Assembly: GCF_003334785.1 (NCBI RefSeq)
Contig: NZ_QOWV01000005.1
Length of the DNA: 64,000 nucleotides
Source of the DNA: Escherichia coli
GTDB lineage: Bacteria > Pseudomonadota > Gammaproteobacteria > Enterobacterales > Enterobacteriaceae
Reading direction: 5' to 3' (one strand)
Part shown: positions 27,001 through 29,082 of the stretch, in pieces
Position numbering within the stretch: the first letter of the stretch is position 1
How the letters are laid out: each line of letters begins with the position of its first letter
Made by a program: the position numbers

Positions 27001-29082
27001 CCCTGTGAAACTGGAAATTGAACCGGGTCGCTTCCTGGTAGCGCAGTCTGGCGTATTAATTACTCAGGTGCGGAGCGTCAAACAAATGGGGAGCCGCCAC
27101 TTTGTGCTGGTTGATGCCGGGTTCAACGATCTGATGCGCCCGGCAATGTACGGTAGTTACCACCATATCAGTGCCCTGGCAGCTGATGGTCGTTCTCTGG
27201 AACACGCGCCAACGGTGGAAACCGTCGTCGCCGGACCGTTATGTGAATCGGGCGATGTCTTTACCCAGCAGGAAGGGGGAAATGTTGAAACCCGCGCCTT
27301 GCCGGAAGTGAAGGCAGGTGATTATCTGGTACTGCATGATACAGGGGCATATGGCGCATCAATGTCATCCAACTACAATAGCCGTCCGCTGTTACCAGAA
27401 GTTCTGTTTGATAATGGTCAGGCGCGGTTGATTCGCCGTCGCCAGACCATCGAAGAATTACTGGCGCTGGAATTGCTTTAACTGCGGTTAGTCGCTGGTT
27501 GCATGATGACTTGCCTCCAGCGACGGAGTTGACACTGAATGACGACGTACCAGCGTCGGACTAAAGACATTAGTGATTTCCGGGAGAGGGCGATTATCCG
27601 CCAGCGCCAAAGCCAGTTCGGCAGCCTGGGTCGCCATCGTCACGATTGGGTAACGCACGGTGGTCAGGCGCGGACGCACATAGCGTGACACCAGCACATC
27701 ATCAAAGCCAATTAACGAAATCTCACCCGGTACATCAATACCATTATCATTGAGAACGCCCATCGCACCCGCCGCCATTGAATCGTTATAACAGGCTACC
27801 GCAGTGAAATTTCTTCCTCGTCCCAAAAGCTCGGTCATTGCCTGTTCGCCGCCGCTTTCGTCTGGTTCGCCAAATGTCACCAGCCGGTCATTGGCCGCAA
27901 TACCACTTTCAGCAAGGGCATCGTAATACCCTTGCAGACGATCTTCGGCGTCAGAAATAGAGTGGTTAGAGCACAGATAACCAATGCGGGTATGACCTTG
28001 CTGAATTAAATGACGCGTTGCCAGCCAGGCACCGTAACGATCGTCCAGAGCAATACAACGGTTTTCAAAGCCAGGCAGGATACGGTTGATCAGCACCATA
28101 CCGGGCATTTGTTTCATTAATGAGGCTAAATCAGCATCCGGGATCATTTTGGCATGGACGACCAACGCAGCACAGCGATGGCGGATCAGTTGCTCAATGG
28201 CCTGACGCTCTTTTTGTTCGTTGTGGTAACCGTTGCCAATCAATAAAAAATTACCGGTGTGATAAGCCACCTGTTCGACCGCTTTCACCATTGCACCGAA
28301 AAACGGATCGGAAACATCACCAACGACCAGACCGACCGTTTCAGTGGTCTGCTGCGCCAGCGCACGGGCGTTGGCGTTCGGGTGATAGCTAAGAGACTCC
28401 ATTGCACTATGCACAGCCAGCCGGGAAGCTTCGCTGGCTTTGGGTGAATTATTAATGACGCGGGAAACGGTGGCGACTGAAACGCCTGCCAGTCGGGCTA
28501 CATCCTTTATGGTCGCCATGAAAATACCTTAGTGGGTAAACGCTTACATTCTTTCAGTGTTACGGAAAACGCCCGTTGGTTCAAGGGGTGGCGTGTTTTC
28601 ATCGTGGGAATGTGAGCCAAACGCAAATAAGTAAGACAAAAAAAGAGATTGCAAACCTTTGGTTACACTTTGCGAAACGCTGTTGCGATTGACCGCTGGT
28701 GGCGTTTGGCTTCAGGTTGCTAAAGTGGTGATCCCAGAGGTATTGATAGGTGAAGTCAACTTCGGGTTGAGCACATGAATTACACCAGCCTGCGCAGATG
28801 CGCAGGTTTTTTTTGCCGGTCATCAATCTGTAACAGTAACCGACAATTTACACACCTCGTTGCATTTCCCTTCATTCCTTTGCGTTTTCTCGCTGGCGAA
28901 GAGTCGTCGTGCAGACCACAATCAAGATCCCAGAGGTATTGATTGGTGAGATTATTCGGTACGCTCTTCGTACCCTGTCTCTTGCACCAACCTGCGCGGA
29001 TGCGCAGGTTTTTTTTCGCACCTAATTTACTGTCGCTCGCGTTCTTTATCTCGTGTAATCTCCCTCCATTCGCTTTTACTGA

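What the first reader, a model, noticed from the sequence alone, without database searches (positions are those of the whole stretch)
28733..29016. Tandem OmrB-OmrA sRNAs mis-called as protein ORFs in the six-frame track
Two about 85 nt elements share a near-identical 5' end (cccagaggtattgat) and an identical terminator (cctgcgc(a/g)gatgcgcagg plus T-run), matching the OmrA/OmrB sRNAs that repress outer-membrane protein mRNAs. The overlapping track ORFs 28599..28826 and 28943..29179 are almost certainly artefacts.
Basis: partly seen in the sequence, partly recalled or inferred. Interest (0 to 1): 0.3.

Follow-up and report, generated by a model that had tools for sequence, protein, structure and literature searches.

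The report
Known E. coli OmrB and OmrA sRNAs
The two repeated 82- and 88-base elements between galR and aas are the well-studied E. coli small regulatory RNAs OmrB and OmrA, and the two open reading frames drawn over them are artefacts, so the finding is correct but ordinary.

Summary
The observation and the interpretation are both right. Window 28733-28814 (+) is omrB and 28929-29016 (+) is omrA. Both match Rfam RF00079 (OmrA-B) over the full model, at 86.1 and 96.6 bits against a gathering score of 40. They are base-for-base identical to the annotated MG1655 genes b4445 and b4444, and the ends match exactly. They lie in the canonical galR-aas spacer and point towards aas.

The shared 15-nt 5' end and the 25-nt terminator each occur exactly twice in the 64 kb window, with about 0 expected. 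Across 22 Enterobacterales homologues, the 5' 15 nt and the GGUG/CACC stem are invariant. The terminator stem pairs in 100% of cells, with compensatory changes at 3 pairs.

The two mechanical ORFs (28599-28826 on the minus strand, 28943-29179 on the plus strand) start with TTG and have no NCBIfam match. They are absent from the MG1655 and RefSeq (PGAP) annotations. Frameshifts or stop codons break ORF 1 in all 16 other species and ORF 2 in 15 of 16, including E. albertii.

An ompF-F1-like OmpR box lies at -81..-62 of omrB, inside the best-conserved promoter block. omrA has conserved upstream blocks but no clear porin-type box. Its -10 element, CACAAT, carries the published sigma-S determinant -12C.

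All of this is already published. Interest is low.

The parts
28733..28814 (+). omrB, an 82-nt Hfq-dependent small RNA
   Evidence: RF00079 at 86.1 bits, model positions 1-87 of 87. Identical to MG1655 b4445, 2976304-2976385 minus strand. Predicted fold -26.6 kcal/mol, z = -2.9.
28929..29016 (+). omrA, an 88-nt Hfq-dependent small RNA
   Evidence: RF00079 at 96.6 bits, model positions 1-87 of 87. Identical to MG1655 b4444, 2976102-2976189 minus strand. Predicted fold -29.5 kcal/mol, z = -2.7.
28733..28753 (+). OmrB 5' seed (target-pairing region), CCCAGAGGTATTGATAGGTGA
   Evidence: The first 15 nt and GGTG are invariant in 22 homologues. The seed is complementary to the ompT and ompR translation-initiation regions. 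Its role in pairing is shown in PMC2588501.
28929..28949 (+). OmrA 5' seed, CCCAGAGGTATTGATTGGTGA
   Evidence: Same evidence as for the OmrB seed.
28787..28814 (+). omrB intrinsic terminator (9-bp stem, GATG-type loop, 8 U)
   Evidence: Found by the terminator scan. The stem pairs in 100% of cells, with compensatory changes at 3 pairs.
28989..29016 (+). omrA intrinsic terminator
28721..28726 (+). omrB -10 hexamer TAAAGT (-12..-7; -12T)
   Evidence: Position relative to the annotated 5' end. Conserved TA..(G/T)T pattern in 19 species. The literature gives -12T as the sigma-70 type (PMC12692685).
28652..28671 (+). OmpR-box candidate upstream of omrB, CAAACCTTTGGTTACACTTT (-81..-62)
   Evidence: Scores 9.7 bits with a PWM built from ompF F1-F3 and ompC C1-C3. 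Only 18 of about 128,000 window positions score as high. It lies in the conserved block 28654-28691. Binding itself was not tested here.
28654..28691 (+). Conserved PomrB upstream block, AACCTTTGGTTACACTTTGCGAAACGCTGTTGCGATTG (-79..-42)
   Evidence: Alignment of 19 Enterobacterales promoters. TTACA, TTTGC and TGTTGC are invariant or nearly so.
28917..28922 (+). omrA -10 hexamer CACAAT (-12..-7), with -12C
   Evidence: CCACAATCAA is conserved in most of 20 species. -12C is the published sigma-S determinant of omrA (PMC12692685).
28828..28836 (+). Conserved PomrA block 1, CTGTAACAG (-101..-93)
   Evidence: It lies in the -114..-61 segment that OmpR activation requires (PMC5175337). A weak reverse-strand OmpR-PWM hit at 28825-28844 is not significant.
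28847..28868 (+). Conserved PomrA block 2, TTTACACACCTCGTTGCATTTC (-82..-61)
   Evidence: It lies within the segment required for OmpR activation.
28872..28889 (+). Conserved PomrA block 3, TCATTCCTTTGCGTTTTC (-57..-40)
   Evidence: Function not assigned.
28599..28826 (-). Mechanical ORF (75 aa, TTG start) antisense to omrB: artefact
   Evidence: Not annotated. No NCBIfam match. Start codon lost, frameshifted or stopped in all 16 other species.
28943..29179 (+). Mechanical ORF (78 aa, TTG start) running through the omrA body and terminator into aas out of frame: artefact
   Evidence: Not annotated. No NCBIfam match. Premature stops in 15 of 16 other species, and length differences that are not multiples of 3 in 14 of 16.
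27488..28519 (-). galR (flanking gene, divergent from the sRNAs)
   Evidence: 343-aa ORF. Annotated as galR.
29104..31263 (+). aas (flanking gene, same direction as the sRNAs)
   Evidence: 719-aa ORF. Annotated as aas.

Best explanation
Window 28733-28814 and 28929-29016 are the paralogous genes omrB and omrA of Escherichia coli. Each is an independent transcription unit with its own promoter and its own intrinsic terminator, in the galR-aas spacer. Each RNA has three parts. The first is a single-stranded, invariant 5' seed (CCCAGAGGUAUUGAU.GGUGA). The second is a variable central hairpin closed by an invariant GGUG/CACC stem. The third is a GC-rich terminator hairpin with a U tail, the usual Hfq-binding module. 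With Hfq, the seed pairs with short complementary stretches near the translation start of target mRNAs. These include ompT, cirA, fecA, fepA, ompR-envZ, csgD, flhDC and others. Pairing blocks translation and promotes RNase E decay. EnvZ-OmpR activates both promoters, and because ompR is itself a target this closes a negative feedback loop. The promoters have diverged: omrA has a -12C, sigma-S-dependent -10 element, while omrB has a -12T element and an ompF-F1-like OmpR box. This lets the two near-redundant RNAs respond to different signals.

Shown here: identity, family membership, anatomy, synteny, conservation, terminator covariation, seed complementarity to ompT and ompR, and non-coding status.

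Taken from the literature: Hfq and RNase E dependence, OmpR and sigma-S control, and the target list.
For: There are two full-length RF00079 hits, at 86.1 and 96.6 bits against a gathering score of 40. A 1701-bp stretch has 0 mismatches to MG1655, and the coordinates map exactly onto b4445 and b4444. The locus is present in 5424 of 5426 complete E. coli genomes. Terminators were detected, and the folds are more stable than shuffled sequence. Tandem or single RF00079 copies occur in 15 other Enterobacterales loci. The sRNA bodies are better conserved than their flanks in nearly every species compared. The seed is invariant, and the terminator has 3 compensatory pairs with 100% pairing, against 18-55% when the partners are slid. 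Seed-target duplexes are stronger than with shuffled seeds: ompT -19.3 and -17.8 kcal/mol, ompR -16.9 and -19.0 kcal/mol, with 0.4-3.6% of shuffles as good. The promoter features were located. Literature: PMC2588501, PMC5175337, PMC13425233, PMC12692685, PMC3945435.
Against: Nothing substantive. The simple sigma-70 consensus scan finds no promoter in the spacer. That is expected for activator-dependent promoters with poor -35 elements. The porin-derived OmpR PWM finds no convincing box upstream of omrA. The crude duplex test does not separate cirA from shuffled seeds. Expression in the particular strain the window comes from was not measured here.
Confidence: 0.98

Rival explanations
1. The overlapping ORFs (28599-28826 minus strand, 75 aa; 28943-29179 plus strand, 78 aa) are real small-protein genes, and the repeats are coding or regulatory parts of them.
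For: Both ORFs are open in this sequence.
Against: Both have TTG starts. They are not annotated in MG1655 or by PGAP. Neither has an NCBIfam match at E<=1. In E. albertii the homologous stretches differ in length by +2 and +1 nt and stop at codons 16 and 48. ORF 1 is broken in all 16 other species and ORF 2 in 15 of 16. ORF 2 would have to be translated through an intrinsic terminator and then overlap aas out of frame.
Confidence: 0.01
2. The elements are cis-acting leader or attenuator structures of aas (or divergent control elements of galR), not independent trans-acting RNAs.
For: They lie directly upstream of aas in the same orientation. omrA ends 87 nt before the aas start codon.
Against: Each copy has its own conserved -10 element and upstream blocks, and a strong terminator with 8 U. 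In Pantoea one copy is separated from aas by a whole gene yet still scores as RF00079. The invariant part is the 5' seed, which is complementary to unlinked mRNAs. Published mutational data show pairing in trans (PMC2588501).
Confidence: 0.01
3. One of the two copies is a decaying, unexpressed duplicate (pseudogene).
For: The two are largely redundant. Some lineages carry only one copy (PMC13425233).
Against: Both copies keep the invariant seed, the stem, the terminator and copy-specific conserved promoter blocks across genera. Both score far above the Rfam threshold. The literature reports separate transcripts and separate regulation.
Confidence: 0.01

Closest known systems
OmrA and OmrB of E. 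coli K-12 (Rfam RF00079; genes b4444 and b4445; formerly RygA/RygB, SraE)
   Same: Everything tested: sequence (100% identical), length, ends, order, orientation, flanking genes, promoter elements and terminators.
   Different: Nothing within the locus. Elsewhere the window's strain differs from MG1655: it has one initiator tRNA-Met copy instead of three.
Other paralogous enterobacterial Hfq-dependent sRNA pairs with a shared seed (for example RyhB/IsrE in Salmonella, Qrr1-4 in Vibrio); comparison from general knowledge
   Same: Duplicated sRNAs with an identical target-pairing region and diverged promoters, which allows different signals to be integrated.
   Different: Unrelated sequence, different regulators and targets. 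OmrA/B are adjacent tandem genes, and the seed sits at the extreme 5' end.
MicF and MicC, other OmpR-regulon sRNAs acting on outer-membrane protein mRNAs (general knowledge; micF lies next to ompC)
   Same: OmpR-controlled, Hfq-dependent repression of outer-membrane protein synthesis by pairing at the translation-initiation region.
   Different: Different families and seeds, single-copy genes, essentially one main target each, and no feedback on ompR.

Membership tests
Rfam RF00079 OmrA-B | Covariance-model score at or above the curated gathering score (40 bits) over the full model | tested here: met
   86.1 bits (28733-28814) and 96.6 bits (28929-29016), both over model positions 1-87 of 87.
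Rfam RF00079 OmrA-B | Conserved single-stranded 5' seed CCCAGAGGUAUUGAU | tested here: met
   Exact in both copies and invariant in 22 homologues from 13 taxa.
Rfam RF00079 OmrA-B | GGUG/CACC closing stem plus a GC-rich intrinsic terminator with a U tail | tested here: met
   Predicted folds and terminator scan. 12 of 12 pairs are standard in all 22 sequences, and 3 terminator pairs show compensatory change.
E. coli omrA / omrB genes | Location in the galR-aas intergenic region, tandem, co-oriented with aas, omrB proximal to galR | tested here: met
   galR at 27488-28519 (-) and aas at 29104-31263 (+). Annotation, coordinate mapping.
E. coli omrA / omrB genes | Sequence identity to the annotated genes b4444 and b4445 | tested here: met
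   100% identical with the same ends.
E. coli omrA / omrB genes | Seed complementarity to validated targets near their start codons | tested here: met
   ompT +2..+21 and ompR -39..-10 form duplexes of -17 to -19 kcal/mol; 0.4-3.6% of shuffled seeds do as well. cirA at -13.6 kcal/mol is not distinguishable from shuffles.
E. coli omrA / omrB genes | OmpR-dependent promoter (OmpR site upstream of each gene) | tested here: inconclusive
   omrB has an F1-like box at 28652-28671, in the top 0.014% of window positions and inside a conserved block. omrA has no PWM hit above background, only conserved blocks within the published -114..-61 required segment. Direct activation of both promoters is published (PMC5175337).
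E. coli omrA / omrB genes | Expressed as discrete ~82 and ~88 nt Hfq-binding transcripts | not testable with these tools
   No expression data are available here. This rests on the literature (PMC2588501, PMC5175337).
Protein-coding gene (the two track ORFs) | Reading frame and start codon conserved in related species; family match | tested here: not met
   Frames are broken in 16 of 16 and 15 of 16 other species. There are no NCBIfam hits and no annotation.

The most novel reading that the evidence does not exclude
The omrA promoter lacks a porin-type OmpR box. It does carry three strongly conserved upstream blocks: CTGTAACAG at -101..-93, TTTACACACCTCGTTGCATTTC at -82..-61, and TCATTCCTTTGCGTTTTC at -40..-57. 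None of these is shared with omrB. At least one of them could be the site of an omrA-specific regulator that has not been identified, or a non-canonical mode of OmpR binding. The literature itself leaves this question open (PMC5175337 discussion; PMC13425233).
Probability: 0.3. Interest if true: 0.25.

Novelty: already known. Interest (0 to 1): 0.05.

Why it matters
As a discovery it matters little. OmrA and OmrB have been characterised since 2006-2008 and are annotated in the reference genome. The value is practical. It also shows that six-frame ORF tracks generate spurious 75-78 aa 'genes' over sRNA loci. PGAP-annotated E. coli records list no feature at all here, so the sRNAs are invisible in most RefSeq annotations.

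Tried and rejected
(1) The sigma-70 consensus scan of 28450-29250 found 0 promoter-like sites. It is uninformative, because both promoters depend on an activator and have poor -35 elements.

(2) I scanned for OmpR boxes with a PWM built from ompF F1-F3 and ompC C1-C3, after confirming those sequences in MG1655. The omrB hit is clear. For omrA the best hit is only 3.2 bits (304 window positions score as well), so no site can be claimed.

(3) The RNAduplex test on cirA gave -13.6 kcal/mol, no better than 23-27% of shuffled seeds. The test is too crude for the short interrupted pairing described in the literature.

(4) NCBIfam searches with the two track ORFs and with the 55-aa ORF that starts at the ATG inside omrB (28775) gave no hits.

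(5) I considered a dual-function (peptide-encoding) sRNA. The only ATG-initiated ORF starting inside either RNA runs through the terminator, so the RNA cannot encode it. Rejected.

(6) About half of the 120 loci from the genome-contig scan with the 15-mer are single chance matches in unrelated phyla. They lack the terminator and were ignored.

Full report
**1. Observation**

- CCCAGAGGTATTGAT begins at 28733 and again at 28929.
- CCTGCGCAGATGCGCAGG plus T8 ends the first element at 28814. CCTGCGCGGATGCGCAGG plus T8 ends the second at 29016.
- The 15-mer occurs only at these two places in the 64 kb window, on either strand, even with two mismatches allowed (0.03 expected from shuffles).
- The 25-nt terminator pattern likewise occurs exactly twice (0.00 expected).
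- Aligned to each other, the two elements are identical at 20 of the first 21 positions. They diverge in the central 26-32 nt. They are identical again from CACC to the end, apart from A/G at one position before the stem and one loop base.
28599..28826 is on the minus strand (75 aa, TTG start). 28943..29179 is on the plus strand (78 aa, TTG start).

**2. Identity**

- A gathering-threshold scan of the whole window against Rfam 15 gives two hits to RF00079 (OmrA-B family). 28733-28814 scores 86.1 bits and 28929-29016 scores 96.6 bits. Both cover model positions 1-87 of 87, and the gathering score is 40.
- The 801-bp region matches 5424 of 5426 complete E. coli genomes, 3867 of them at 99% identity or better, always between galR and aas.
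- PGAP-annotated records list no feature in the spacer. The curated MG1655 record lists ncRNA omrA (b4444, 2976102-2976189, minus strand) and omrB (b4445, 2976304-2976385, minus strand).
- Window 27918-29618 is identical to the reverse complement of MG1655 2975500-2977200, with 0 mismatches in 1701 bases. Window 28733, 28814, 28929 and 29016 map exactly to 2976385, 2976304, 2976189 and 2976102 (alignment).
- So the first element is omrB (82 nt) and the second is omrA (88 nt).
- The flanking genes are galR (27488-28519, minus strand) and aas (29104-31263, plus strand).

**3. Anatomy**

Each RNA is predicted to fold into three parts: an unpaired 5' end, a central hairpin closed by GGUG/CACC, and a GC-rich terminator hairpin followed by eight U. 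The energies are -26.6 kcal/mol (z = -2.9) for omrB and -29.5 kcal/mol (z = -2.7) for omrA. The consensus terminator scan picks up both terminators.

Counting back from the annotated 5' ends gives the -10 hexamers:
- omrB: TAAAGT at 28721-28726, with -12T.
- omrA: CACAAT at 28917-28922, with -12C.

The -12C/-12T difference is the published reason why omrA depends on sigma-S and omrB does not (review PMC12692685).

**4. Relatives elsewhere**

- A scan of one genome per species with the 15-mer returned 120 loci. Those that also carry the terminator are all Enterobacterales.
- Rfam confirmed RF00079 hits of 69-97 bits in 15 of these loci. Copies are in tandem in Escherichia albertii, Citrobacter, Kluyvera, Mangrovibacter, Serratia grimesii and Edwardsiella. 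They are single in the fetched loci of Pectobacterium, Dickeya, Rahnella, Shimwellia, Erwinia, Tatumella and Serratia bockelmannii. In Pantoea there are two copies about 2 kb apart.
- In an alignment of 22 RNAs, the first 15 nt and the GGUG/CACC stem are invariant and the centre is free to vary.
- On the 12 pairs I specified, every one of 264 cells is a standard pair. Sliding the partners drops this to 18-55%.
- Three terminator pairs show compensatory changes: G-C to A-U in 9 sequences, U-A to C-G in 2, and C-G to U-A in 1.
- This is the signature of a structured RNA with a sequence-constrained single-stranded seed.

**5. The ORFs are artefacts**

- In a 17-species alignment of the whole tandem locus, the sRNA bodies are the best-conserved parts in nearly every species. 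Identity to the window is 64-99% for omrB and 65-100% for omrA. It is 36-90% upstream of omrB and 28-90% between omrA and aas.
- ORF 28599..28826 (minus strand): the start codon is lost in 10 of 16 other species. The length differs by a non-multiple of 3 in 13 of 16. A premature stop appears in all 16. In E. albertii the length difference is +2 nt and the stop is at codon 16.
- ORF 28943..29179 (plus strand): the length differs by a non-multiple of 3 in 14 of 16 species, and there are premature stops in 15 of 16. In E. albertii the difference is +1 nt and the stop is at codon 48.
- The second ORF would also have to be translated through the omrA terminator, and it overlaps the first 76 nt of aas in another frame.
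- Neither ORF, nor the 55-aa ORF opening at the ATG inside omrB, matches any NCBIfam model at E<=1.

**6. Promoters and the OmpR question**

Aligning -125..+15 of each gene across 19-20 species shows copy-specific conserved blocks.
- omrB has one long block, 28654-28691 (AACCTTTGGTTACACTTTGCGAAACGCTGTTGCGATTG, -79..-42).
- omrA has CTGTAACAG (28828-28836, -101..-93), TTTACACACCTCGTTGCATTTC (28847-28868, -82..-61) and TCATTCCTTTGCGTTTTC (28872-28889, -57..-40).
- Both promoters have GCTGG at about -37..-33.
- A 2026 paper reports the same picture: conserved promoter regions that differ between the two genes (PMC13425233).

- I confirmed that the six classical OmpR sites I recalled (ompF F1-F3, ompC C1-C3) are present, contiguous, upstream of ompF and ompC in MG1655. 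That they are OmpR sites is established knowledge, not tested here.
- I built a PWM from them and scanned both promoters against the whole window as background.
- PomrB contains CAAACCTTTGGTTACACTTT at 28652-28671 (-81..-62, gene orientation), scoring 9.7 bits. Only 18 of about 128,000 window positions score as high. It matches ompF F1 at 14 of 20 positions (counted by eye) and coincides with the conserved block.
- PomrA has nothing above background. Its best hit is 3.2 bits, on the reverse strand at 28825-28844.

So an OmpR box is supported by sequence for omrB and inconclusive for omrA. Experimentally, OmpR-P activates both promoters in vitro on -114..+50 templates, and an omrA promoter truncated at -60 is not activated (PMC5175337). 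This places the required element among the conserved omrA blocks 1 and 2. OmpR ChIP signal at both genes is reported in PMC3945435, which also stresses that OmpR has a weak consensus.

**7. Mechanism**

Shown here:
- The seed is invariant and predicted to be unpaired.
- It is complementary to the translation-initiation regions of ompT (+2..+21; -19.3 and -17.8 kcal/mol for OmrA and OmrB) and ompR (-39..-10; -16.9 and -19.0 kcal/mol). These are better than 96-99.6% of shuffled seeds.
- cirA (-13.6 kcal/mol) is not separable from shuffles by this crude test.

Taken from the literature:
- Pairing of the 5' end with ompT, cirA and ompR in vivo, dependence on Hfq and RNase E, and the autoregulatory loop through ompR (PMC2588501; PMC5175337).
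- Sigma-S control of omrA.
- RstB-RstA as an omrB-specific multicopy activator (PMC13425233).

The best explanation is therefore the textbook one. These are two adjacent, independently transcribed, Hfq-dependent trans-acting sRNAs. They share a seed and targets, have diverged promoters, and repress outer-membrane protein and other mRNAs under EnvZ-OmpR control.

**8. Rivals**

- Real small-protein genes: tested and not met (section 5).
- A cis-acting aas leader: contradicted by each copy having its own promoter and terminator. It is also contradicted by a Pantoea copy that is separated from aas by a whole gene and by published pairing in trans.
- A decaying duplicate: contradicted by conservation of the seed, stem, terminator and copy-specific promoter blocks in both copies.

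**9. Verdict**

The feature is already known and annotated in the reference genome. Interest is low. The only mildly open point is what binds the conserved omrA-specific upstream blocks, and this is already recognised in the literature.

Noticed in passing
window 57435-57511 (-): The window has a single initiator tRNA-Met gene where MG1655 has three tandem copies (metZ, metW, metV). Flanking sequence is 100% identical to MG1655, so the window's strain carries a 220-bp collapse of the tandem array. Apart from this it is K-12-like in the two stretches compared (about 1.7 kb around omrAB and 3 kb around the tRNA locus).
   Followed up: partly
window 61997-62202 (-): GcvB sRNA, Rfam RF00022 at 199 bits over the full model: another known Hfq-dependent sRNA in the window.
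   Followed up: no
window 58939-58981 (+): Rfam hit to RF02751 ES036 (CssrF) sRNA, 46.5 bits against a gathering score of 37.6. By coordinate mapping to MG1655 it falls inside or at the edge of the mltA region. Not examined.
   Followed up: no
L123 (E. coli strain 300709, NZ_CP025903.1), equivalent to window ~28866: An IS3-family element is inserted in the galR-aas spacer at about -63 of omrA. This is between the conserved upstream block needed for OmpR activation and the core promoter, and should uncouple omrA from OmpR in that strain.
   Followed up: partly
L030 2747-4879 (Pantoea stewartii) and L059 647-2770 (Pantoea MAG): The two RF00079 copies are about 2 kb apart rather than about 200 bp. 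In P. stewartii (L030, the only one examined for ORFs) a 579-aa FtsI/PBP3-like gene lies between them (NF011685, 687 bits, below the 737 cutoff). The second copy sits just upstream of aas. The upstream neighbour is a bisC/torA-family molybdoenzyme gene, not galR.
   Followed up: partly
window 28534-28551: GTGGGTAAACGCTTACAT, 15-32 nt upstream of the galR start codon, resembles a gal operator half-palindrome (GTGnAAnCGnTTnCAC type, from memory). It may be the GalR/GalS autoregulatory site. Not tested.
   Followed up: no
L001 (NZ_CP104326.1) and other PGAP-annotated E. coli records: RefSeq PGAP annotation lists no omrA or omrB feature in the galR-aas spacer, although the sequence is identical to MG1655. 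The hit table of the E. coli search likewise lists only galR and aas under the match in the 12 records shown, so the sRNAs look unannotated in PGAP records generally.
   Followed up: yes
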